A DNA stretch of 64,000 nt from Naegleria gruberi (lineage: Eukaryota), in the NCBI GenBank assembly GCA_000004985.1, contig GG738853.1. One strand, written 5' to 3'. Below the pieces are notes generated by a model. The model was not told where the DNA came from, made no database searches, and worked only from the letters and a program-made list of their open reading frames with translations. Positions 1-39,094 of this stretch are shown piece after piece. Each line of letters starts with the position of its first letter. The first letter of the stretch is position 1. A program made the translations under genes and the position numbers.

Positions 1-404
1 TAACCCAAACCCAAACCCAAACCCAAACCCAAACCCAAACCCAAACCCAAACCCAAACCCAAACCCAAACCCAAACCCAAACCCAAACCCAAACCCAAAC
101 CCAAACCCAAACCCAAACCCAAACCCAAACCCAAACCCAAACCCAAACCCAAACCCAAACCCAAACCCAAACCCAAACCCAACCCAAACCCAAACCCAAA
201 CCCAAACCCAAACCCAAACCCAAACCCAAACCCAAACCCAAACCCAAACCCAAACCCAAACCCAAACCCAAACCCAAACCAAAACCCAAACCCAAACCCA
301 AACCCAAACCCAAACCCAAACCCAAACCCAAACCCAAACCCAAACCCAAACCCAAACCCAAACCCAAACCCAAACCAAACCCCCAAACCCCAAACCACCT
401 AACC
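1..404. repeat. Terminal telomere tract, (CCCAAA)n on the + strand = (TTTGGG)n G-strand. About 65 near-perfect hexamers, degenerating at 370-404 (CCAAAC, CCCCAAA, CCACCTAACC variants).
   Basis: Direct reading of the sequence. The unit AAACCC repeats without interruption from position 1. The C-rich strand reads 5'->3' into the sequence, which is the orientation expected for a left chromosome end. Confidence 0.9.
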
Positions 405-486
405 TTTTTATTTATATTTGAATGACATATATGAAATTCAGATACTCAATATTGGCCGTTCGTTAGTCGTCGATGGGTTTTCGTCT

Positions 487-509
487 AACCCAAACCCAAA
501 CCCAACCCA
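487..509. repeat. Interstitial telomere-like block (AACCCAAACCCAAACCCAACCCA) at a subtelomeric unit boundary.
   Basis: It is preceded by a conserved junction motif TATTGGCCGTTCGTT...GGTTTTCG. The same motif recurs at 2216-2255. Confidence 0.8.
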
Positions 510-962
510 TTCAAATATCATAATATTTTATATCATTCGATTGGAAATGATGAGTAGAACAACGTAGTATATTTAGTTTTTCAATTTATAAAATATTAAC
601 TTTGTAAATAATGTCAGATTAAAATTTCATAAATGAAACCATATGAAGAATGATAATTTAAAAATCCTTTAATGAGATTATATAGTATATATCATCGTTA
701 ACAACATTCATAATCACTTTCATATAAAATTTCAAAAGTTCATCTCTGTAGGTATAAAAGTATAGAGGGAAAAGGGAAGTTGTGAGGTAAAATAGGTCAA
801 CTATAACTTTTGAGTTTCTCATCAAAACATATTGAAACCTGATATGAAAATGTTCCATTTGATGAGTAAACATCGAATATCAAATTTATTTTAACTTTCA
901 TATTTAAAGATTTCTTCCCTCAACCATCATGGTCAACTAGGGATGAAAAGGATGAAATCTTG

Positions 963-2156
963 AAAAAGGACCNNNNNNNNNNNNNNNNNNNNNNNNNNNN
1001 NNNNNNNNNNNNNNNNNNNNNNNNNNNNNNNNNNNNNNNNNNNNNNNNNNNNNNNNNNNNNNNNNNNNNNNNNNNNNNNNNNNNNNNNNNNNNNNNNNNN
1101 NNNNNNNNNNNNNNNNNNNNNNNNNNNNNNNNNNNNNNNNNNNNNNNNNNNNNNNNNNNNNNNNNNNNNNNNNNNNNNNNNNNNNNNNNNNNNNNNNNNN
1201 NNNNNNNNNNNNNNNNNNNNNNNNNNNNNNNNNNNNNNNNNNNNNNNNNNNNNNNNNNNNNNNNNNNNNNNNNNNNNNNNNNNNNNNNNNNNNNNNNNNN
1301 NNNNNNNNNNNNNNNNNNNNNNNNNNNNNNNNNNNNNNNNNNNNNNNNNNNNNNNNNNNNNNNNNNNNNNNNNNNNNNNNNNNNNNNNNNNNNNNNNNNN
1401 NNNNNNNNNNNNNNNNNNNNNNNNNNNNNNNNNNNNNNNNNNNNNNNNNNNNNNNNNNNNNNNNNNNNNNNNNNNNNNNNNNNNNNNNNNNNNNNNNNNN
1501 NNNNNNNNNNNNNNNNNNNNNNNNNNNNNNNNNNNNNNNNNNNNNNNNNNNNNNNNNNNNNNNNNNNNNNNNNNNNNNNNNNNNNNNNNNNNNNNNNNNN
1601 NNNNNNNNNNNNNNNNNNNNNNNNNNNNNNNNNNNNNNNNNNNNNNNNNNNNNNNNNNNNNNNNNNNNNNNNNNNNNNNNNNNNNNNNNNNNNNNNNNNN
1701 NNNNNNNNNNNNNNNNNNNNNNNNNNNNNNNNNNNNNNNNNNNNNNNNNNNNNNNNNNNNNNNNNNNNNNNNNNNNNNNNNNNNNNNNNNNNNNNNNNNN
1801 NNNNNNNNNNNNNNNNNNNNNNNNNNNNNNNNNNNNNNNNNNNNNNNNNNNNNNNNNNNNNNNNNNNNNNNNNNNNNNNNNNNNNNNNNNNNNNNNNNNN
1901 NNNNNNNNNNNNNNNNNNNNNNNNNNNNNNNNNNNNNNNNNNNNNNNNNNNNNNNNNNNNNNNNNNNNNNNNNNNNNNNNNNNNNNNNNNNNNNNNNNNN
2001 NNNNNNNNNNNNNNNNNNNNNNNNNNNNNNNNNNNNNNNNNNNNNNNNNNNNNNNNNNNNNNNNNNNNNNNNNNNNNNNNNNNNNNNNNNNNNNNNNNNN
2101 NNNNNNNNNNNNNNNNNNNNNNNNNNNNNNNNNNNNNNNNNNNNNNNNNNNNNNNN
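963..2156. other. Assembly/scaffold gap (1,194 N).
   Basis: Uninterrupted run of n. The ORF-track entry 960..2240 is an artefact of translating N. Confidence 0.99.
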
Positions 2157-8844: not shown

Positions 8845-9546
8845 TAGACGGTGGGCAGTACCCTGTATTCGTTGTTCCAACCAAATTTTTTAGAGTCGAG
8901 CCAATTTTATAAATATTTTAATATTATTTATTCTTCTGATGATATTTCGTCGCCACTTTATTCATCACTTCCACTTTGTGGATTCTGATGCATCATCTTC
9001 CTCATATTCTGATCCGCTGGTAGTATCGTCTTGGTAAATTCTTGGAAAGCTTTTGGAGTTTATGGTTTGATGGTTGGTATTTCATCATCAACAGGATTTC
9101 CTCTTTTTGTTGCCAATTTCTTGGTTTCTTTGTTGTTGGAGATTTAGATGTAAGAAGAAGATTCCAGTCAAAGAAATTTCCTGATGATGGGTTGTTGTAT
9201 ATATATTCTAGCCAACTGCCATGTTGTTCAGTTGCTTCCAAATACCAGCTTGTGATTGGACATTGTGGCCAGTAGACAAAATCTCTTAATTTTTTTAAAT
9301 TTTAATTTAACGGTTTTTACAACCAAATGTCAAAGCAACGGATCTTCTGTGGCTCGACTTTGAAATTTTTTTGTCTGACCCGGCTCGACTTGTAAAAATT
9401 TTTGTCTGACCCGGCTTGACTTGTAAATTTTTTAGCCTGACCCGGCTCGACTTGGAAATTTCGCAAGTTCTACATAAAATGCCTCTGGCTCGACTTTGAA
9501 ATTTTTACTCCCTGACCCGGCATTTTACATCACTGACCACCGTCTA
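8845..9546. mobile_element. Non-autonomous DNA transposon (MITE-like, hAT-like by its TSD length). It is 702 bp, with perfect 10-bp terminal inverted repeats TAGACGGTGG...CCACCGTCTA (the imperfect match extends to ~14 bp) and a flanking 8-bp direct duplication ATTATGAA.
   Basis: I read the TIRs and the TSD directly from the sequence. Removing 8845-9546 plus one TSD copy joins ...GATTATTATGAA|AATGGAGATTTA..., which encodes DYYENGDL. That is exactly the expected kinase subdomain V sequence, so the insertion site is in a coding exon. The element has no long ORF; ORF 9002..9241 is low-complexity. An internal minisatellite lies at 9351-9521. Confidence 0.75.
9351..9521. repeat. Minisatellite with a ~31-bp unit (GGCTCGACTTGTAAAAATTTTTGTCTGACCC) in about 5 copies, relatively GC-rich, inside the TIR element.
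   Basis: Direct repeats seen at 9351, 9382, 9413, 9444 (diverged) and 9487. Confidence 0.8.
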
Positions 9547-30620: not shown

Positions 30621-31309
30621 CTTTTTATTCCCAAAGAAAACTTTCCAACTCTATAATTTTAAGATTGACTAGCCATATTTACATTGAATAGTAACTAACA
30701 AAAACAAGCGACCCTGTCAACACATGCCAAATATCAAAATCAAAGAAAAACTTATACAAACGGATAAAGTTTGGTAGAATCCACTTTCGAATTCTCCAAA
30801 AAAACATCACCAACAAAATTCCACAAGAAATACTTTACCAAATTCCTCAACAACAAACCTCAATATTGATACCACGGCTCGCTTCCAAACGCGTTTCCTT
30901 ATTACCCCTGTTTAGAACCTCCTCTCCTAATTTGTGAGCAATTCCCGAATTGTAATTGGCTGACCTTCAATAGCAAAAACTTTACGAATTGATTTACAAT
31001 GTCGGTACATGACTTTCCATTCATGGAGAGGCTCTTCGTTGTTTGCATTATCTAACTGGGCTTTGTTTCTCAACCTGTTTCATGGATGAAGTATTCGAAA
31101 GCAAAGAAAAAGAATCTAAAGAAACTGGCAGTGCCGGTGCATTCGTTATAATACTGGCCAATTCAAAACAAATTATCAAAACAACCAGATTCCTTTGAAT
31201 CATTTCTCCAACAAGAGAATTAAAAGTTTACGAAACTAAATTAAACTCTCGTAAATATTTTCCTACAACAACTGAAATCAAATTAAATCATTAAACAACA
31301 ACTACAAAT

Positions 31310-33991
31310 ATGATTCGAAGAACAAGCGACAGTACTTCTTCTTCCAACAATAATCAAAGAACAAGTCAGTCATCATCCAATAATATCCTAAACACTCCAC
31401 CATCTCCAATGCTTGCCAATTCATCTTCTCTCACCAACACCAACTTTCTATCTTCTCCAAATTCAAATTCTTCCAATAATTTAATGTTGACACTCAATTC
31501 GAATACAGTTTCGAATAGCACAATGATGGCAACAAATAGTTTCAATAATAAGAGATGGGGATTGTCTCCTTCGGCTTCTTCGTTACTTTCGTTAGATTTA
31601 CAAACGATGAGTCATCAGACGCCAATTCTTCATTCCTTGTTGGCCTCTCCGAATTCGAATAGTTTAAATCAGAATCATCATCAACAATACGAAACTAACT
31701 CTTCAGCTACTATTCTGCTATTGGATGAAGTTTTACTGGAAGATCATCACGAGAATGAAGATGACCAAGTTGTAAATAAGAATAACATGCGCAGTTGTAC
31801 GTGTTGTGAAATGCCAATTGACCAAACAATTATAGAAAGACATGCAAAGGAAAACGACTTTTTATGTAAATACTTTTTCAAAGTGTTGCCAACTCATAAA
31901 GTTAGAATACTTACTAAACAACAAAAGGATCTCATTATGGAAGATCAATTATTAGATGATGTGTTGACTTCTGAAGAGGAAGATGACGAAAATGATTTGA
32001 ATAATGAACCTAATAGTTTAGATGCTCATTATTTGAATTTGATTTCGAGTGCTATTCAGAAAGAAGTTAGTGCTCTGGAAAGACCATTAATTTTCAATCA
32101 TGTGGTTACTGAACCATTTTGGAGATTATTGGAAAGTTCAATTATTTATTCACCAGATAATTGCCAAAATTCAACAGTGAATGATAATTTGGCATTATCC
32201 ACGAGTCCTAACTGTCCTACTTCACCTGGTACTCTCATGATGAAGATTTATTCGAGTTCTACAACTAGTAATTATGCCAATAATTCATCACTGGTTCACA
32301 TTGCTGCCAAACATAATCGAGTTGAGATTTTGGAATGGTTAAAATCATGTTGTTGTGATCAGGAGTGCAATATTGAGAATGATTCACATTCTACAATGTG
32401 TATTTCCAGACAAATCACATTGTGGAATTTGAAAGATTACAATGGGTCAACTCCACTTTTTTGTGCATGTCAAGGTTGTCCAACTTCAACAGCCAATGAA
32501 GCTGGTGTTTTCCTAATGAGCCAAATGCAAACACTCGATCCACTCTCCAAGTACATTCACCAAACTGACAATTATGGAAACTCTCCACTCTCCCTCTGCA
32601 TGAGAAAGAGAGATTGGAAAATGTGTGACTTGCTCATTCTCTTTGGAGCCAGTATCGATGGAAACACTGGTGCATTTGGAGAGAGTTTACTCCACACTTC
32701 AATGAGAGATTTGGACATGTTGAGAGTTGAATTCATTGCCAAGAGAGCTCCAAAGGCCCTCCTGAAAAAGAATCAAAAAGAAGAGAATGCTCTCTTTTCA
32801 TTGGTGAAAGATTTCAGATGTAATGTGAATGCAGGAAGATCATTCATATTGGGAAGTAGTGATTTCTCAACCATGTCAACGAATATAGCACAAACAAATT
32901 GTACGAGTCCAGAGAGTCCCTCCCCAACTTCACCTTACAGTGAAACTAAATCAGCATTGAGAAGTGCTGTGAATAGAGCTTTCCCTAAGGAACAGAGAAT
33001 TAATTTTATTCGAATGATTCTTGAGAGTGGATCGTCAGTATTTGGTAGGGAAGTCTTTGAAAAGGCATTGAGCTTGAAGAATCAACATGGACGAAACTTT
33101 TTATTAGAATCAGTGGCTTGTGGCGACCATATTGCCACAAAAGAAATTGTAAATAGTCTTTCAATACTTTCACTAGTAGCAGAGGAATGCTGTAGTGATC
33201 CTAGAAAACTAATGGAATCAATAGTTTTCACAAATGATAGAAATTCAAAGAATATTCTTCATCTTTCGATTGAATTCGCCACGAAACGAATGAATCAACA
33301 TAATAGAGAGGATTACCAAACGTGGTTGGATAGTTTCTACTTTCTCCTGTCATGGTTAGATGAGAATCTTGCATATGGTGCCTTATTTAATAGAGAATGC
33401 ACTGGATTATTAAGTGGAAAGGATTCGAATGGTTTATTTCCACACCAATATCTTGAAAAGGAAGTTTCAAATAATCAGAGTGATATTAGATGGAAGAATG
33501 TTTTGGAAATTATGAAATCTTATGAATCCAAGTGGACTTTCAATTCGAAAGGTGCCCTTCCATCAAATGGACTTTCGAATAACTCAAAGAGAGGTTCAAC
33601 AAGTAAGAAACAATCAATTTTCTCATTTCTTACTTCTCATCAACCCTCTGAAGAAATCATGACACCAAAGAAGATTAGGCAACTTTCCAGAAAATCAGGA
33701 AACTTCACACCAAAGAAACTTGTCACTTCTGAAGCCTTTTCGAAAGATTCGGCTTTGTTATCCGAATCTAAGGATAAGTTGGCAGCGCCACTGAAACCAC
33801 ATAAGGAAAGTTTCCTTACTGATCACTCTACTTTATATTCGAATAGTTCACAAAGTATAGTTTCGACTGTTAGCAATTTGAGCAGTCATTCGAATGCAAC
33901 AAATTATTCTGAGCCTTCAAATAGAACTCAGAAACTCTTTTCTGGAATTATGAAAAAGTTAACAGGAAAGAATAAATCCTATCTCTATTAG
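31310..33991 (+). CDS. An 893-aa low-complexity (Ser/Asn-rich) protein with ankyrin repeats (LVHIAAKHNRVEILEWL; GSTPLFCACQG; GNSPLSLCMRKRDWKMCDLLILFGASID).
   Basis: Single ORF. The ankyrin consensus was read from the translation. Confidence 0.6.
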   Translation: MIRRTSDSTSSSNNNQRTSQSSSNNILNTPPSPMLANSSSLTNTNFLSSPNSNSSNNLMLTLNSNTVSNSTMMATNSFNNKRWGLSPSASSLLSLDLQTMSHQTPILHSLLASPNSNSLNQNHHQQYETNSSATILLLDEVLLEDHHENEDDQVVNKNNMRSCTCCEMPIDQTIIERHAKENDFLCKYFFKVLPTHKVRILTKQQKDLIMEDQLLDDVLTSEEEDDENDLNNEPNSLDAHYLNLISSAIQKEVSALERPLIFNHVVTEPFWRLLESSIIYSPDNCQNSTVNDNLALSTSPNCPTSPGTLMMKIYSSSTTSNYANNSSLVHIAAKHNRVEILEWLKSCCCDQECNIENDSHSTMCISRQITLWNLKDYNGSTPLFCACQGCPTSTANEAGVFLMSQMQTLDPLSKYIHQTDNYGNSPLSLCMRKRDWKMCDLLILFGASIDGNTGAFGESLLHTSMRDLDMLRVEFIAKRAPKALLKKNQKEENALFSLVKDFRCNVNAGRSFILGSSDFSTMSTNIAQTNCTSPESPSPTSPYSETKSALRSAVNRAFPKEQRINFIRMILESGSSVFGREVFEKALSLKNQHGRNFLLESVACGDHIATKEIVNSLSILSLVAEECCSDPRKLMESIVFTNDRNSKNILHLSIEFATKRMNQHNREDYQTWLDSFYFLLSWLDENLAYGALFNRECTGLLSGKDSNGLFPHQYLEKEVSNNQSDIRWKNVLEIMKSYESKWTFNSKGALPSNGLSNNSKRGSTSKKQSIFSFLTSHQPSEEIMTPKKIRQLSRKSGNFTPKKLVTSEAFSKDSALLSESKDKLAAPLKPHKESFLTDHSTLYSNSSQSIVSTVSNLSSHSNATNYSEPSNRTQKLFSGIMKKLTGKNKSYLY

Positions 33992-34175
33992 AAAGTTTAA
34001 ATTTTATCTTGCAATAGAGTTTCGAATAAATTTATTAGAATAGTTTAATAATTTACAATGAACTGTGAAAATAACGAGAGATATTTATGGAAATAATTGA
34101 CCAATCATAAATGTACAAGGCTTGTTTCGTCATTTTCATCACCTGTCCTTTAGAATAACAAGTTTCAAATAAAAA

Positions 34176-34763
34176 ATGGCTCAATCTCTACTTTCGAATG
34201 GTATCTTGCTTGGTTTCGTATTGAACACCATTCTTCTTTCTATTAGAATGTTTATTTGTTCAATATTAGCTGCTATCTTTCGAGTCCGAGAGAAGAATCA
34301 TAAAACATTATCCGAAAGTGGACGAAACATAACACTGCTCGATTCAGAGCAAAGAGCTCAAGCTAGACTTTCGTCCTCTCCTTCCATGTCATCTCTAGAT
34401 GATGTTTCCAACAACAGACCAACACCATCCTCATCATCAATTCCTAAATTAGAAGATTTACTTTCGTATAGAACTGAACAAGTTTTACGAAACGATTTGG
34501 AAAACATTTGTCCTTTCTTTCTAGTAAACGTAGCTTTCGTCATTATCTGCCAACAATTAGAACAACCAATTTGGCATTCAATTATTGCAAATTCACTCAT
34601 GGGATTATTTACAACATCGAGAATTATTTATTTATTTGCCTATTTGAGGAATTTATTAATTTTGAGGAATGTGAGTTGGTTATTGGGATTTGTATTGACT
34701 ATTTCATTGGCTGGTTATTCAATTTTTTGCATTATCTTTTTGGAAGATAATTTCCAAAATTAG
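34176..34763 (+). CDS. MAPEG-family (microsomal glutathione S-transferase-like) membrane protein with an inserted Ser-rich loop.
   Basis: The motif VLRNDLENICPFFLV matches the MAPEG RxxxNDLENIxPF signature, and there are four hydrophobic helices. Confidence 0.55.
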   Translation: MAQSLLSNGILLGFVLNTILLSIRMFICSILAAIFRVREKNHKTLSESGRNITLLDSEQRAQARLSSSPSMSSLDDVSNNRPTPSSSSIPKLEDLLSYRTEQVLRNDLENICPFFLVNVAFVIICQQLEQPIWHSIIANSLMGLFTTSRIIYLFAYLRNLLILRNVSWLLGFVLTISLAGYSIFCIIFLEDNFQN

Positions 34764-34793
34764 TAATTTTTATAAATATTAAATTTGTAATTC

Positions 34794-35390
34794 TTAATAT
34801 TTAATAATATAATTAAGAACCAATGATGGTTGCATATTTTCATGAGCTGAATTTCCACCAACTTCATTGGTTGTGAAATTGTGAGTATGATTGGCTCCTG
34901 TAAAATTATCGTCATCCTTATGAGTAGCTGGACCTCCACACCATCCTGGAGTATGGAAAACATCAGAAATTGGTCCAGATTGATGAACTATAATGTAAGG
35001 TTGTTTGTTGGCTTTTCCAGTGGTTCCTGAGTGTGAATGACTTGGTAGTTCACTAATTTGCAATTGGTGAGATTCTTCTCCAACTTTTTGAGCTAGAGTT
35101 CTATTGGAAAGTCCAGCTCCGTGACCAATTCCAACAACTGCTCTTCCCCTGAGGTCGGGAACATTGAATGAGTGAGGTCCTCCTGTACTTCCATATGCAT
35201 TTCCAATAGTTTGAAACAATCGAATATAATCTGGATGACTATTCGGATAGGTGGCTCCATCACACAATAACCAACCTGCTGGTATAGTTGTTCCAGCAAA
35301 TGCATTCACAATACCAACAGGAATTATAATTTGAGATTCTAAACGTGCAATTCTTTGTAATAAATCATTCAAGTTTAGTTCGTTTGTCAA
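34794..35390 (-). CDS. Protein with a bacterial/phage tail-collar (tail-fibre) domain. It has a short N-terminal coiled coil, then the motifs IPAGWLLCDGATYP...YIRLF..IGNAYG...FNVPDLRGRAVVGIGHGAGLSNRTLAQKVGEESHQL..SELPSHSH ... NMQPSLVLNYIIKY.
   Basis: The 198-aa ORF matches the phage tail-collar / microcystin-dependent-protein family pattern essentially motif for motif. Its codon usage resembles the neighbouring genes. There is no in-frame ATG: the frame opens at 35396 and the ORF track uses TTG at 35388-35390, so the true start or an upstream exon is unresolved. Confidence 0.6.
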   Translation of the reverse strand: MTNELNLNDLLQRIARLESQIIIPVGIVNAFAGTTIPAGWLLCDGATYPNSHPDYIRLFQTIGNAYGSTGGPHSFNVPDLRGRAVVGIGHGAGLSNRTLAQKVGEESHQLQISELPSHSHSGTTGKANKQPYIIVHQSGPISDVFHTPGWCGGPATHKDDDNFTGANHTHNFTTNEVGGNSAHENMQPSLVLNYIIKY

Positions 35391-36169
35391 ATCAAATTAC
35401 CAACACAACGAGCTTTTAATTGTTGCTCGAATATCACATCACTTTTTGAAATCACGATCAGAACGAAAAAGGACTTGGAGGAACAACAAAGGATTAGAAA
35501 TGGGAACGTTGTAATTAAATTGTTACTAGAATTCTCTCAGAAGAAAGTTGATTAGAAGTAAAAGTTCCTTTCAGAGCTACAAGAAAATTACCAATCAAGC
35601 TGATATTCAATATTTATAATGACTCACCAGTCAATTGAAAAGCAAATCCAAGCTCCATTTCTTGCTGTAAATTCTCTTCTTGGTTTCTTCATGGTATTAA
35701 TTAACCGTAGAAGAATTGCCAATTTGAGCTATTGTACAAGATGTGAGTGTTAACAACTTGGTAGCTTTTCAACATTGCACAACAAATTTTTGTACGGTGC
35801 GAATCGAATAGATGGATAATTAAATAGTACCTCAAAGTTTTTGTGAATTATATAATTCTAGCAAAGCACGACTAGATTGGAACTTTGAAAGTGATTTCAT
35901 GTCAATGGTCTCTTCCCATAAAATACAACTAACAATCTAATTGGGTGAAAAATTGGTTGACTTTGTAATCTGCAAACTTTGAAGAACTTTATTTTCAATT
36001 TTGATTGGCTAGTTCCTTTGTAAAACATGAATGAACACTCAATCTCAAAATAAGCTTCCACTTTTTATTCGAAATAGTGATGTTTATGGTAATTTCACAC
36101 TAATCTCACTAATGGCCTTTTAAGCGCGCCATTCACACACTTTCGTCCAGAATATTCGAAACAAAAAAA

Positions 36170-39094
36170 ATGTTGAACAAGCTATCTATTTTTCAATATT
36201 TACTATTGTCAATTGTGTTTTTCACAACTAGTTACATGTGTCTTTCAACACATGCCAGTTCAGTTGCACCTTTCGTTGGTGTTTCCTCATTTGCTGGCAG
36301 TTTCTCTATTGGTGATGGTTTACCAGCTGCTGAAACTAAAGTTGAAAATGTTTATGCCTTGACAATCAATTCCAAAACTGGTGATCTTTACTTGACTGAT
36401 AACAATAGAGTTCGTAAAGTTTCGTCCACTAACAATATCATGTCCACATTCGCTGGAACAAACAACCAAGTTAATCCTGAAGATGGTCAACCAGCTGTTA
36501 ATACACCACTTGCAGAACCAAGAGGATTAGAAATTAGCTCAAATGGTGAGGTTTACATTGCAGATTATTCCACATGCAAGATTAAAAAAGTTTCCTCTCA
36601 AGGAATTATGACAACCATTGCAGGAACAGGTCCAGGACAAAACAATGATAGAAGATTAGTTTCAGTTTATACTGGAGATGGAGCTTTTGCTAATGAAACT
36701 CAATTGTCATTCCCTCAAGCAATTGCTTTCCATCCAATTACTGGTGAATTACACATAGCCGAAACTCAAAGTTACAAAATTAGAAAGATTACTTTAGAGG
36801 GTAGAATTGCAACAGTTGTTGGAAGTGGACAAAAAGGTCAAGAATCACCAGATGGTGTTTTGGCTGTCAATGCAATTATTGGAGCTCCAGGAAATATCAT
36901 CTTTGATTCGATTGGAAATATGTATCTATCCGATAGATCATTTCACAAAGTTAGAAAGGTCCTTACCAATGGTACCATTGTTACAATTGCTGGAAATGGT
37001 ATGAGTGCCTATAATGGTGATGGTATCTTGGCTGTTTCTGCTTCACTTTTCAGACCAAGTGGATTGGCCCTTAGCTCCACAGGTGAGCTCTATATTGCCG
37101 AAAGTTATGGTCATAGAATTCGTAAAGTCTTGACAAATGGTACAATTATTACTATTGCTGGAACTGGAGTTGCTGGTTATGAAGGAGATGGAGGTTTAGC
37201 TGTAAATGCTCTCTTGGATGCACCAGAATCAATCTTTTTGAGTTCTGATAATTATCTCTTGATTTCTGATTTTGGAAATAAGAGAATTCGTAAAATTTCT
37301 CTATTGGATGGAACTATTTCAACTATTGCAGGAGATGGTTTGGGAGATGGAAAAGCTGCCTCAGTTTATGGTATTTTGAGATATCCAATTGATGTTAAAA
37401 AGGGACCAAATGGAATTCTGATTGCAGATTCTGGTAATGCGAGAGTGAGAAGTGTTTCTAATGGTGGAATTATTTCAACCATTGCAGGTTCAGGTACAAA
37501 TGGTAACCCACAACTTAGAGCCCTCAGAGAGCTTGCTACAAAGGCAAAGTTCGGTACTACTTATGCAATTACAACAAGATCAGATAATGGTGATGTCTAT
37601 GTGATAGATGATACCAATAACAAAATTTTCAAAATTTCTAACCAAGATGGTTCAATTACAGCAATTATTGGTGATGGCAATTATGGATTTACAGAGGATG
37701 GAAGTATTGCAGAGGGTTCATCAGTTGGAGGTTTAAGTGGTGTTGCACTCAATTCATTGGGTGAGGTCATCTTTACAGAGTCCAATAGAATTCGTAAAAT
37801 TTTGACAAATGGTACACTTGTTACCATTTCAGGATATGGAAATCTTCAAGATTCAGGTCAAGGATTTAGTGGAGATGGAGATTTGGCTCAATATGCTTCC
37901 CTTTCTTCTCCAGGTCGTTTATTCATCCACTCAGATGACATTTACTTTGCCGATCAAGACAATTACAGATTCCGTAAGATCTTTGCTAATGGTACAATCA
38001 CAACTATTGCAGGAACAGGATATGGAGATTATGGAGCTGATGATATTTTGGCCACAGAAACATATCTTGCAAGACCAACAGATATTGCCATGAATTCGAA
38101 AGGAGAATTAATCATTTCTGACGCTAAAAGAATTAGAAAAATTGACTTGAATGGAATAATTGTTACTCTGGCTGGAAGTAACGTTGCTGGTTTTTCAGGA
38201 GATGGTGGTCCAGCTGCTGATGCAACCTTTGGAACTTTGGGAGGAATCTATCTTGATTCGAATGATGATATTTATGTTAGTGATCCTGATAATCATAGAA
38301 TTAGAAAGATTTCCCTCATGTGCCCAACCGATTATGCATTGAATGGTAGTGAGTGTATTCCAGTATGTTTTGGAGTTGTTAGCAATGATCCATCAGTTTG
38401 TTCTGGTAAGGGTTCATGTACTCAAAACAATACTTGTCAATGCTCACCTTCCTATTATGGAGCCAATTGTGATTCCTTCAATTGTTCTGGAATTTCCTCC
38501 AATTCAACACTTGTTTGTTCTTCCCATGGTGTTTGCTCTTCTCCAGATACTTGCAATTGTGAAAATGGATATTATGGAAAGAATTGTGAATCATTTAATT
38601 GTTTTGGTGTCAATTCTCAAAATTCCACTAACGTTTGCTCAGCACAAGGAAATTGCACATCTCCAGATAAGTGTAATTGTAAGACTGGATATTTGGGAAG
38701 TAATTGTGAAATGTTCAATTGTTTTGGTGTCAATTCTCAAAATTCCTCCAATGTTTGTTCATCACAAGGAAATTGCACATCTCCAGATAAGTGTAATTGT
38801 AAGACTGGATATTTTGGAAGTAATTGCGAATCATTTAATTGTAAGGGTATTAAGAATAGTGATTCGAGTGTTTGTTCATCTAGAGGTCAATGTATTTCAC
38901 CAGATAATTGTAAATGTACTACAGTTAATAGTTATGGAGTGAATTGTGAATTCATTGTCGAAGGAAAGATTTCAAATATCACAGCTACAAAATCCAATGC
39001 TAGATTGAATGATGGTTCTTCAATTAAGACTCCTTATATGTTGTTGGTTACAACTTTGTCAATTATCATCATGTCAATTTTCTTGATTCTTTAA
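36170..39094 (+). CDS. A 974-aa surface protein. It has a signal peptide, about 13 NHL repeats (probably two beta-propellers; recurring ...IRK(V/I)...NGTIxTIAG.G), five tenascin-type EGF modules (C.G.G.C...C.C..GY.G.NC..FNC) and a C-terminal hydrophobic tail (GPI anchor or TM).
   Basis: Single ORF. The repeats were read from the translation. ORFs 38343..38942 and 37809..38093 are overlapping-frame artefacts. Confidence 0.75.
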   Translation: MLNKLSIFQYLLLSIVFFTTSYMCLSTHASSVAPFVGVSSFAGSFSIGDGLPAAETKVENVYALTINSKTGDLYLTDNNRVRKVSSTNNIMSTFAGTNNQVNPEDGQPAVNTPLAEPRGLEISSNGEVYIADYSTCKIKKVSSQGIMTTIAGTGPGQNNDRRLVSVYTGDGAFANETQLSFPQAIAFHPITGELHIAETQSYKIRKITLEGRIATVVGSGQKGQESPDGVLAVNAIIGAPGNIIFDSIGNMYLSDRSFHKVRKVLTNGTIVTIAGNGMSAYNGDGILAVSASLFRPSGLALSSTGELYIAESYGHRIRKVLTNGTIITIAGTGVAGYEGDGGLAVNALLDAPESIFLSSDNYLLISDFGNKRIRKISLLDGTISTIAGDGLGDGKAASVYGILRYPIDVKKGPNGILIADSGNARVRSVSNGGIISTIAGSGTNGNPQLRALRELATKAKFGTTYAITTRSDNGDVYVIDDTNNKIFKISNQDGSITAIIGDGNYGFTEDGSIAEGSSVGGLSGVALNSLGEVIFTESNRIRKILTNGTLVTISGYGNLQDSGQGFSGDGDLAQYASLSSPGRLFIHSDDIYFADQDNYRFRKIFANGTITTIAGTGYGDYGADDILATETYLARPTDIAMNSKGELIISDAKRIRKIDLNGIIVTLAGSNVAGFSGDGGPAADATFGTLGGIYLDSNDDIYVSDPDNHRIRKISLMCPTDYALNGSECIPVCFGVVSNDPSVCSGKGSCTQNNTCQCSPSYYGANCDSFNCSGISSNSTLVCSSHGVCSSPDTCNCENGYYGKNCESFNCFGVNSQNSTNVCSAQGNCTSPDKCNCKTGYLGSNCEMFNCFGVNSQNSSNVCSSQGNCTSPDKCNCKTGYFGSNCESFNCKGIKNSDSSVCSSRGQCISPDNCKCTTVNSYGVNCEFIVEGKISNITATKSNARLNDGSSIKTPYMLLVTTLSIIIMSIFLIL

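What the first reader, a model, noticed from the sequence alone, without database searches (positions are those of the whole stretch)
34794..35700. A bacterial/phage tail-collar domain protein is encoded between ordinary eukaryotic genes, making it a horizontal-transfer candidate.
The 198-aa product matches the phage tail-fibre collar / microcystin-dependent-protein family along its whole length, including the GW..CDG, PDLRGR and hydrophobic LVLNYII tail motifs. That family is overwhelmingly prokaryotic or viral. Here the gene is embedded gap-free between a MAPEG gene and an NHL/EGF gene, with host-like AT-rich codon usage, so contamination is unlikely and the transfer is probably old (ameliorated). 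The ORF lacks an in-frame ATG. A possible upstream mini-exon (MKKPRREFTARNGAWICFSID + GTGAGT, ~35620-35685 on the - strand) does not join in frame, so the gene structure and its expression status are open.
Basis: partly seen in the sequence, partly recalled or inferred. Interest (0 to 1): 0.7.

Follow-up and report, generated by a model that had tools for sequence, protein, structure and literature searches.

The report
Phage tail-fibre gene in Naegleria
The amoeboflagellate Naegleria gruberi carries, among ordinary eukaryotic genes near a chromosome end, one intact gene for a phage tail-fibre "collar" binding domain, most likely acquired from a bacterium; it is already in GenBank, and whether it is expressed is untested.

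Summary
Window 34794-35390 (- strand) is an uninterrupted 198-codon frame with a full-length match to the phage tail-collar family (Pfam PF07484, E 1.9e-17). It has no in-frame ATG.

The window is the telomeric end of a Naegleria gruberi NEG-M scaffold (Heterolobosea, not Amoebozoa). The gene is already public as XP_002680548.1, "microcystin-dependent protein".

All other relatives found are bacterial, phage or giant-virus sequences at 44% BLAST identity or less. The closest share a rare second HxH motif and lie on prokaryote-type contigs. Every flanking gene is eukaryotic, and there is no assembly gap nearby.

The protein keeps 46 of 48 family-conserved positions, so it is not decayed. I infer a metal-stabilised trimeric glycan-binding protein.

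The "old, ameliorated" claim is unproven, because genes from AT-rich viral relatives score as equally host-like.

Verdict: a real, ordinary horizontal transfer. Interest is modest.

The parts
34794..35390 (-). Open reading frame of 198 codons plus stop. It encodes the tail-collar protein. The first codon is TTG and there is no in-frame ATG.
   Evidence: Pfam match; leave-one-out HMM 218.5 bits
35628..35658 (-). Predicted exon 1 of the GenBank model XP_002680548.1. It reads ATG + MELGFAFQLT + the first base of codon E. The start context is gaaATGg.
   Evidence: splicing exon 1 to exon 2 reproduces P0001 exactly
35339..35627 (-). Predicted spliceosomal intron of 289 nt, CTG|GTGAGT ... CACGTTTAG|AA. 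It is a prediction without transcript evidence here. Its 3' end overlaps the first 17 codons of the long ORF.
   Evidence: chance of such a model is 0.15; mean N. gruberi intron is 203 bp (PMC8296547)
34794..35338 (-). Predicted exon 2. It covers the whole conserved domain and the stop codon.
35139..35315 (-). Collar domain proper (aa 26-84), which includes GW..CDG and PDLRGR.
   Evidence: PF07484, 63.4 bits; pLDDT above 90
35031..35039 (-). First HxH motif (H118-S-H120). It aligns with the YHKH of the T4 gp12 receptor-binding domain and is the putative metal site on the three-fold axis.
34881..34889 (-). Second HxH motif (H168-T-H170), inside the subfamily signature D..F..ANHTHNFTT. Only 5 of 183 relatives have this signature.
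34797..34823 (-). C-terminal strand LVLNYIIKY, which follows the conserved H-x-N-M-Q-P.
35624..35692 (-). It opens a 22-codon uORF, MKKPRREFTARNGAWICFSIDW*, that ends at the donor site. It would compete with ATG 35658 if transcription starts upstream of it.
34176..34763 (+). Convergent MAPEG-family neighbour. Its stop is 30 nt from the collar stop.
36170..39094 (+). Divergent NHL/EGF (teneurin-like) neighbour. It is identical to a GenBank N. gruberi protein.
2..396 (.). Telomere repeat (AACCCA)n. It places the gene about 35 kb from a chromosome end.

Best explanation
This is a single-copy N. gruberi gene, acquired by horizontal transfer from a bacterium or its prophage. It encodes a stand-alone receptor-binding module of the phage tail-fibre "collar" type.

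**Shown**
- The frame is intact and scores as a typical family member.
- It is embedded in eukaryotic DNA about 35 kb from a telomere.
- Every other relative found is bacterial or viral.
- It carries a rare second HxH motif. The only other carriers lie on prokaryote-type contigs.

**Inferred**
- The protein forms a homotrimer like T4 gp12/gp37 and the cyanophage A-1(L) fibre.
- The two HxH motifs (H118/H120 and H168/H170) each hold a metal ion on the three-fold axis.
- The tip binds a polysaccharide. In a bacterivore, that would plausibly be a bacterial surface glycan.

**Expression**
The only canonical route to translation is the database model: ATG 35658, a 31-nt exon, and a 289-nt GTGAGT...AG intron added after the transfer. 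It is plausible but unverified.
For: - **Family and intactness.** PF07484 scores 63.4 bits. The gene keeps 46 of 48 columns that are at least 80% conserved in 115 homologues, and its leave-one-out HMM score of 218.5 bits matches the family median of 219.9. GC1/GC2 are 0.51/0.44, the same as in the bacterial homologue genes, while GC3 is 0.18. That pattern is expected for sequence still constrained as protein.
- **Fold.** The AF2 model has mean pLDDT 80.7, with the collar region above 90. Foldseek matches the T4 gp12 receptor-binding domain (3.8e-6), the cyanophage A-1(L) fibre, the T4 gp37 tip and the free-standing bacterial protein C24. An HMM places the first HxH on the YHKH of gp12.
- **Bacterial affinity.** The NJ sister is P0004 (42-53% of bootstraps) or a Polyangiales MAG protein (19-26%), and never CroV. 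The signature D..[FY]..NH.H.F occurs only in Naegleria, P0002, P0003, P0005 and L009 among 183 sequences. Those contigs are prokaryote-like.
- **Host context.** All neighbours are eukaryotic: RGS, EGF/GPS, fascin, F-box, ankyrin, MAPEG, NHL/EGF and PAS-cyclase. There is no gap nearby.
- **Gene model.** Ten ATG/GT/AG combinations join in frame. Only the GenBank one has a consensus donor.
Against: - No transcript, EST or peptide evidence could be reached.
- The frame has no ATG of its own, and an upstream ATG at 35692 opens a uORF.
- 15% of random upstream regions yield an equivalent spliced model.
- No orthologue is available, so selection cannot be measured. A metagenome scan found no close relative.
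- The predicted N-terminus shows no obvious signal peptide (by eye), which fits poorly with an extracellular lectin role.
- Bootstrap support for the bacterial sister is only moderate. Patristic distances to all groups are similar, at 0.54-0.70.
- Trimerisation, metal binding and ligand are inferred from homologues and were not tested.
Confidence: 0.7

Rival explanations
1. The gene is a dead-on-arrival or silent insertion. A recently integrated bacterial or viral fragment never acquired a working start codon. The two-exon model would then be a gene-caller's device for finding an ATG.
For: - There is no in-frame ATG, and M186 is the only Met.
- The uORF from ATG 35692 ends at the donor.
- The chance of a comparable spliced model is 0.15.
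- Residues 1-22 are no more similar to homologue N-termini than shuffles are, so nothing marks a conserved start.
- The gene is subtelomeric.
- No orthologue appears in other Naegleria proteomes.
- Host-like codon usage would also be seen for a fresh insert from an AT-rich donor.
Against: - The gene is at least 56% diverged from every known relative, yet it keeps 46 of 48 conserved positions and a median HMM score.
- The closest relatives sit on 66% GC contigs with GC3 of 0.69-0.80. From such a donor, third positions were almost wholly rewritten to 0.18 while the frame stayed open and GC1/GC2 stayed family-like.
- By my own arithmetic, with stop-codon frequency about 0.07 per codon, a random 198-codon frame in this composition stays open with probability about 4e-7.
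Confidence: 0.22
2. The donor was a protist-infecting giant virus or virophage, not a bacterium or phage. This rival concerns origin only and is compatible with either functional state.
For: - The best hit among catalogued viral structures is CroV E3T4R8 (E 1.2e-14, 37% identity). Orpheovirus also has a collagen+collar protein.
- The 617,453-bp, 23.6% GC contig L099 carries a 39%-identical copy.
- Several other 23-28% GC viral contigs carry relatives. Their neighbours fit large eukaryotic viruses: GT25, a photolyase-related protein, GATase and MUG113/T5orf172.
- Their codon usage already resembles that of Naegleria.
Against: - These AT-rich viral sequences form their own clade of 12, away from Naegleria.
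- CroV was never the sister in 100 bootstraps.
- They lack the second HxH / GW signature that Naegleria shares with prokaryote-contig proteins.
- No other virus-like gene lies nearby.
Confidence: 0.15
3. The gene is bacterial contamination or a chimeric assembly.
For: None beyond the prokaryotic affinity of the protein.
Against: - Sequence is continuous, with the only N run 33 kb away.
- The stop codon is 30 nt from a eukaryotic MAPEG gene.
- GC3 is 0.18 and CAI is 0.775, within the host range.
- The gene lies on a 695,587-bp scaffold that ends in a telomere.
Confidence: 0.02
4. The gene is an ancient, vertically inherited eukaryotic gene.
For: None found.
Against: No eukaryotic protein other than the gene's own entry is among the 120 best of 926 hits. 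N. fowleri and N. lovaniensis proteomes are in the same database.
Confidence: 0.02

Closest known systems
T4 gp12 short tail fibre receptor-binding domain (PDB 1OCY, 1PDI, 5IV5), with T4 gp37 tip (2XGF) and cyanophage A-1(L) tail fibre (8KEC)
   Same: It shares the collar fold and the PDxRG loop. The HxH motif aligns with the YHKH of gp12, and it has the conserved C-terminal strand.
   Different: - It is a 191-198 aa stand-alone protein with no fibre shaft and no baseplate-attachment domain.
- It is not in a phage genome or a tail-gene cluster.
- It is encoded in a eukaryotic nucleus.
- Sequence identity is only 21-25%.
Stand-alone bacterial collar proteins, annotated 'microcystin-dependent protein MdpB' or 'phage tail protein'. 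Examples are P0002-P0005, the Polyangiales MAG locus L009, and Bizionia argentinensis C24 (PDB 6OV6).
   Same: They have the same size class and architecture, at 40-44% identity. Naegleria shares the rare second HxH signature with P0002, P0003, P0005 and L009.
   Different: - The bacterial genes often sit in tandem. Of 80 loci, 38 have two or more copies and 23 have exactly three. The nearest relative, P0004, has a tandem paralogue. Naegleria has one copy.
- The closest bacterial forms carry a signal peptide plus a roughly 130-aa N-terminal extension, which is absent here.
- The needle is shorter than in P0002 and P0003, which have four or more HxH repeats.
Collar-domain proteins of protist giant viruses (CroV E3T4R8; Orpheovirus collagen-like protein with a tail-collar domain)
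   Same: The same domain operates in a eukaryotic-cell context. Identity is 37-39%, and both are AT-rich.
   Different: They form a separate clade and lack the second HxH motif. They are viral genes, not chromosomal ones.
Other bacterium-to-protist horizontal transfers in free-living amoebae (for example those reported for Acanthamoeba, PMC4053784)
   Same: An isolated prokaryote-type gene sits among host genes with host-like composition.
   Different: The cargo here is a virion structural or adhesin module rather than a metabolic enzyme.

Membership tests
Pfam PF07484 Phage tail collar domain | Score above the curated gathering threshold | tested here: met
   63.4 bits against a cutoff of 24, covering profile positions 1-56 of 57
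Pfam PF07484 Phage tail collar domain | Family-conserved residues retained (GW..CDG, F.PDxRGR, G.E.H.L, E.P.HxH, H.NMQP) | tested here: met
   46 of 48 columns that are at least 80% conserved match. The two exceptions are T69 (consensus G) and E184 (consensus N).
Pfam PF21939 Gp10_C (baseplate gp10 C-terminal domain) | Score above the gathering threshold | tested here: not met
   25.6 bits against a cutoff of 27, at aa 82-192. This is a related fold only. Foldseek to gp10 (2FKK) gives E 0.65.
T4 gp12/gp37-type tail-fibre receptor-binding tip | Fold similarity to solved tips | tested here: met
   Foldseek probability is 1.00 to 1OCY, 5IV5, 1PDI and 8KEC, and 0.99 to 2XGF. TM-scores are only 0.32-0.45, because a monomer model cannot reproduce the intertwined part, where pLDDT is 55-68 for aa 121-180.
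T4 gp12/gp37-type tail-fibre receptor-binding tip | Homotrimer with metal ions bound by HxH motifs on the three-fold axis | not testable with these tools
   The motifs are present (H118/H120, H168/H170), and the first aligns to gp12 YHKH. Oligomer state and metal content need experiment. That these histidines bind zinc in gp12 is from memory of Thomassen et al. 2003.
T4 gp12/gp37-type tail-fibre receptor-binding tip | Part of a tail fibre: N-terminal shaft and neighbouring tail or baseplate genes | tested here: not met
   Only about 23 residues precede the domain, and all neighbours are eukaryotic.
'Microcystin-dependent protein' (MdpB), the GenBank product name | Expression dependent on microcystin in Microcystis | not testable with these tools
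   The name is transferred by similarity only. It has no meaning in Naegleria.
Prokaryote-to-eukaryote horizontal gene transfer | Nested among prokaryotic sequences in a tree | tested here: met
   In the NJ tree of 183 sequences, the sister is P0004 or the Polyangiales L009. Bootstraps are 42-53% and 19-26%. A shared rare signature supports this. Support is moderate.
Prokaryote-to-eukaryote horizontal gene transfer | Absent from related eukaryotes | tested here: inconclusive
   There is no Naegleria or other eukaryote protein in the best 120 of 926 hits, and no close relative in JGI metagenomes. Unannotated genomes of other Naegleria could not be searched.
Prokaryote-to-eukaryote horizontal gene transfer | Physical linkage to bona fide host genes | tested here: met
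Prokaryote-to-eukaryote horizontal gene transfer | Acquired eukaryotic gene features (spliceosomal intron, transcript) | tested here: inconclusive
   A consensus GTGAGT...AG intron gives the only good model, but the chance expectation is 0.15 and no transcript data were available.

The most novel reading that the evidence does not exclude
Naegleria has domesticated a phage or bacterial receptor-binding tip as its own trimeric lectin for bacterial surface polysaccharides, used for prey capture or defence against intracellular bacteria. It made the gene translatable by recruiting a new 5' exon with a spliceosomal intron. This would be a documented case of a virion adhesin being eukaryotised.
Probability: 0.15. 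Interest if true: 0.55.

Novelty: already known. Interest (0 to 1): 0.3.

Why it matters
If the gene is expressed, it shows a bacterivorous protist reusing a phage-type adhesin. It would also be a small, tractable case of how a transferred bacterial gene gains a eukaryotic start codon and intron.

As it stands, it is one more isolated prokaryote-type gene in a subtelomeric, lineage-specific region of a protist genome. It has been in GenBank and UniProt with the correct family label since the 2010 genome release. I found no paper that discusses it, but it does not change what is known about the family or about gene transfer.

Tried and rejected
- **Conserved N-terminal helix.** I first thought ORF residues 1-17, which the predicted intron removes, were homologous to the N-terminal helix of bacterial relatives. 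That would have argued against the intron. An anchored ungapped test gave z = 0.74. In an N-terminal HMM test, 418 of 1000 shuffles scored at least as high. Both show no signal above chance, so I dropped the argument.
- **Host-like codon usage as proof of an old transfer.** Rejected as proof. AT-rich viral homologue genes give CAI 0.69-0.83 against the same reference.
- **Presence/absence in a second strain.** Environmental contigs 99.1-99.3% identical to window 31101-34765 end 29 nt short of the collar stop. The same sample also lacks the NHL/EGF neighbour, so this is uninformative.
- **Transcript or duplicate records.** Exact look-ups of the 191-aa and 198-aa products found no other contig.
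- **Mobile-element footprints around the gene.** Only short chance-level repeats were found.
- **Paralogues in the window.** None.
- **NCBIfam.** No hit.
- **Literature.** Nothing on Naegleria plus tail collar, MdpB or the accession numbers. The 2010 genome paper is not held.
- **afdb50 fold search for other eukaryotic members.** The library was unavailable.

Full report
**What is there**

On the - strand, 34794-35390 is a 198-codon open frame that begins with TTG. The in-frame codon just upstream (35393-35391) is a stop. The other frames over the same DNA reach only 49-70 aa.

The product belongs to the phage tail-collar family:
- It matches Pfam PF07484 at 63.4 bits (cutoff 24). The Gp10_C model scores just under its cutoff.
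- It matches 21 PHROG tail-fibre families.
- A family HMM built without it aligns residues 15-197 at 218.5 bits, which is exactly the family median.
- It keeps 46 of 48 columns that are at least 80% conserved in 115 homologues.

**Where the window comes from**

The protein is 100% identical over 91% of its length to XP_002680548.1 / EFC47804.1 / D2V5I7. That entry is "microcystin-dependent protein" of Naegleria gruberi NEG-M, on a 695,587-bp scaffold. The NHL/EGF neighbour is identical to another N. gruberi entry on the same scaffold.

Naegleria is a heterolobosean (Discoba), not an amoebozoan. The window starts with (AACCCA)n at 2-396, followed by an assembly gap at 973-2156. The gene therefore lies about 35 kb from a chromosome end.

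**Gene structure**

The GenBank protein begins MELGFAFQLT-E-SQIIIPVG. I rebuilt the model from its parts:
- ATG at 35658;
- a 31-nt exon ending at 35628;
- a 289-nt intron;
- acceptor TTTAG|AA;
- exon 2 from 35338.

The spliced product equals the database protein exactly.

I enumerated every ATG / GT / AG combination that reads into the domain. That gave 10 models, and only the GenBank one has a consensus donor. A 289-nt intron is unremarkable for a genome whose mean intron is 203 bp (PMC8296547 Table 2).

The model remains a prediction. When the upstream region is replaced by random sequence of the same first-order composition, 15% of trials allow an equivalent ATG...GTRAGT/AG model.

I also tested whether ORF residues 1-17, which the intron would remove, look like the N-terminal helix of bacterial relatives. 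They do not exceed chance. They therefore argue neither for nor against the intron. No transcript or duplicate record could be reached.

**Surroundings**

Every sizeable ORF from 11 to 51 kb carries eukaryotic-type domains: RGS, EGF/GPS, fascin/FRG1, F-box, ankyrin, MAPEG, NHL/EGF, and a PAS-adenylate cyclase. An M20 peptidase is also present.

The collar gene is a lone insert. It converges on MAPEG with 30 nt between the stops, and it diverges from NHL/EGF. No paralogue is in the window, and no terminal repeats or other mobile-element traces flank it. Contamination or misassembly is effectively excluded.

**Origin**

Relatives are overwhelmingly bacterial or viral:
- Apart from its own entry, the best of 926 hits are 31-54% identical over the aligned part, and about 40-44% over near-full length. 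They are metagenomic or bacterial proteins named tail fibre or microcystin-dependent protein.
- Cultured phages reach at most 37% identity.

The nearest neighbours point to bacteria:
- In an NJ tree of 183 domain sequences, Naegleria groups with P0004 and a Polyangiales MAG protein.
- In 100 bootstraps the sister was P0004 (42-53%) or that MAG protein (19-26%).
- The stretch ...PY..V...H..GW.GG....D.NF..ANHTHNFTT, which contains a second HxH motif, supports this independently. Its core pattern occurs in only 5 of 183 sequences: Naegleria, P0002, P0003, P0005 and L009.
- The contigs carrying P0002, P0003, P0004 and L009 look prokaryotic. They have 40-66% GC, dense same-strand genes, transposases, an integrase and ParA/McdB.

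Giant viruses of protists also carry the domain. The best hit in the viral structure library is CroV E3T4R8. The matching 617,453-bp, 23.6% GC contig L099 has a 39%-identical copy. That this contig length is the CroV genome is from memory, but the BFVD hit agrees. These AT-rich viral copies form a separate clade, lack the second HxH motif, and were never the sister of Naegleria. I therefore favour a bacterial or prophage donor and leave a giant-virus route at about 15%.

**Age**

The gene has GC3 of 0.18 and CAI of 0.775 against the window's own ORFs, whose range is 0.64-0.82. That conclusion holds only if the donor was GC-rich like the two nearest relatives, which have 66% GC and GC3 of 0.69-0.80. 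AT-rich viral homologue genes, taken as they are, give CAI of 0.69-0.83 on the same scale.

No orthologue appears in the N. fowleri or N. lovaniensis proteomes held in the database. None appears in JGI metagenomes either. So the transfer may be specific to the N. gruberi lineage.

**Is it alive?**

In favour of a functional gene:
- The frame is intact and the family-conserved residues are kept.
- GC1/GC2 (0.51/0.44) match the bacterial homologues while GC3 is extreme. That is the pattern of protein-level constraint.

Against:
- It has no start codon of its own.
- A competing uATG lies upstream.
- It is subtelomeric and has no known orthologue.

I put about 0.7 on a functional, expressed gene and about 0.22 on a silent insert.

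**How it would work**

The AF2 model has mean pLDDT 80.7. It gives a short N-terminal helix, a confident collar domain (aa 24-110, pLDDT above 90), a low-confidence middle (aa 121-180) and a confident C-terminal strand. That is what a monomer prediction of an intertwined trimer looks like.

Foldseek finds the T4 gp12 receptor-binding domain, the cyanophage A-1(L) fibre, the T4 gp37 tip and the free-standing bacterial protein C24. HMMER aligns P-S-H118-S-H120 with the YHKH of gp12.

By analogy, the protein is a homotrimer whose HxH motifs hold metal ions on the axis and whose tip binds a polysaccharide. This rests on established knowledge of gp12/gp37, cited from memory. In bacteria these small proteins are often tandem triplets: 23 of 80 loci have exactly three copies. 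The single Naegleria copy would have to homotrimerise. A role in recognising bacterial surfaces is attractive for a bacterivore, but it is speculation. By eye, the predicted N-terminus has no obvious signal peptide.

**Verdict**

The gene-structure question has a database answer that still needs transcripts, and the "old transfer" claim is unproven. The gene and its family label have been public since 2010. I found no paper that discusses it. It is a real but ordinary case of gene acquisition by a protist.

Noticed in passing
window 1-2156: The window opens with a telomere array, (AACCCA)n, at 2-396. A short interstitial copy lies near 487-507, and an assembly gap of Ns spans 973-2156. The finding is therefore subtelomeric, about 35 kb from the chromosome end.
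   Followed up: partly
L170 1-3662 and L171 1-2688 (= window 31101-34765 and 32073-34765): Two assemblies of one metagenome run (ERR1078381 / ERZ929261) hold a contig 99.1-99.3% identical to the ankyrin + MAPEG genes, which indicates an environmental N. gruberi-like strain. Both contigs stop at window 34765, 2 nt after the MAPEG stop and 29 nt before the collar stop. The same sample yielded no collar or NHL/EGF protein, so it cannot show whether that strain has the collar gene.
   Followed up: partly
window 34176-34763 (+): The MAPEG ORF has only one database hit at E <= 1e-5, the metagenome protein P0125. No GenBank N. gruberi entry and no N. fowleri or N. lovaniensis homologue appeared. It may be unannotated or lineage-specific.
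   Followed up: no
window 36170-39094 (+): After its own GenBank entry, the NHL/EGF neighbour is most similar (35-40%) to long NHL-repeat proteins from prokaryote-looking metagenome contigs. Other Naegleria proteins reach only 33-37%. The NHL part might itself have a bacterial history.
   Followed up: no
L099 4758-5516; also L088, L094, L095, L135, L137: A clade of collar-domain proteins sits on very AT-rich (23-28% GC) viral contigs, one of them matching CroV. Neighbouring genes include GT25, a photolyase-related protein, GATase and C2H2 + MUG113/T5orf172. So protist giant viruses carry this phage-type domain.
   Followed up: partly
L008-L087 (bacterial loci); L168 63-1976: In bacterial genomes the small collar genes are often tandem. 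Of 80 loci, 38 have at least 2 copies and 23 have exactly 3, which suggests heterotrimers. The nearest relative of the Naegleria gene, P0004, has a tandem paralogue that has lost the HxH region.
   Followed up: no
window 35624-35692 (-): A 22-codon upstream ORF starts at an ATG in good context and stops exactly at the predicted splice donor. It would reduce translation from ATG 35658 unless transcription starts between the two ATGs.
   Followed up: partly
window 9351-9461: A 31-bp tandem repeat of 3.6 copies lies in the gene-poor, 24-31% GC stretch between the telomere and the first long ORF.
   Followed up: no
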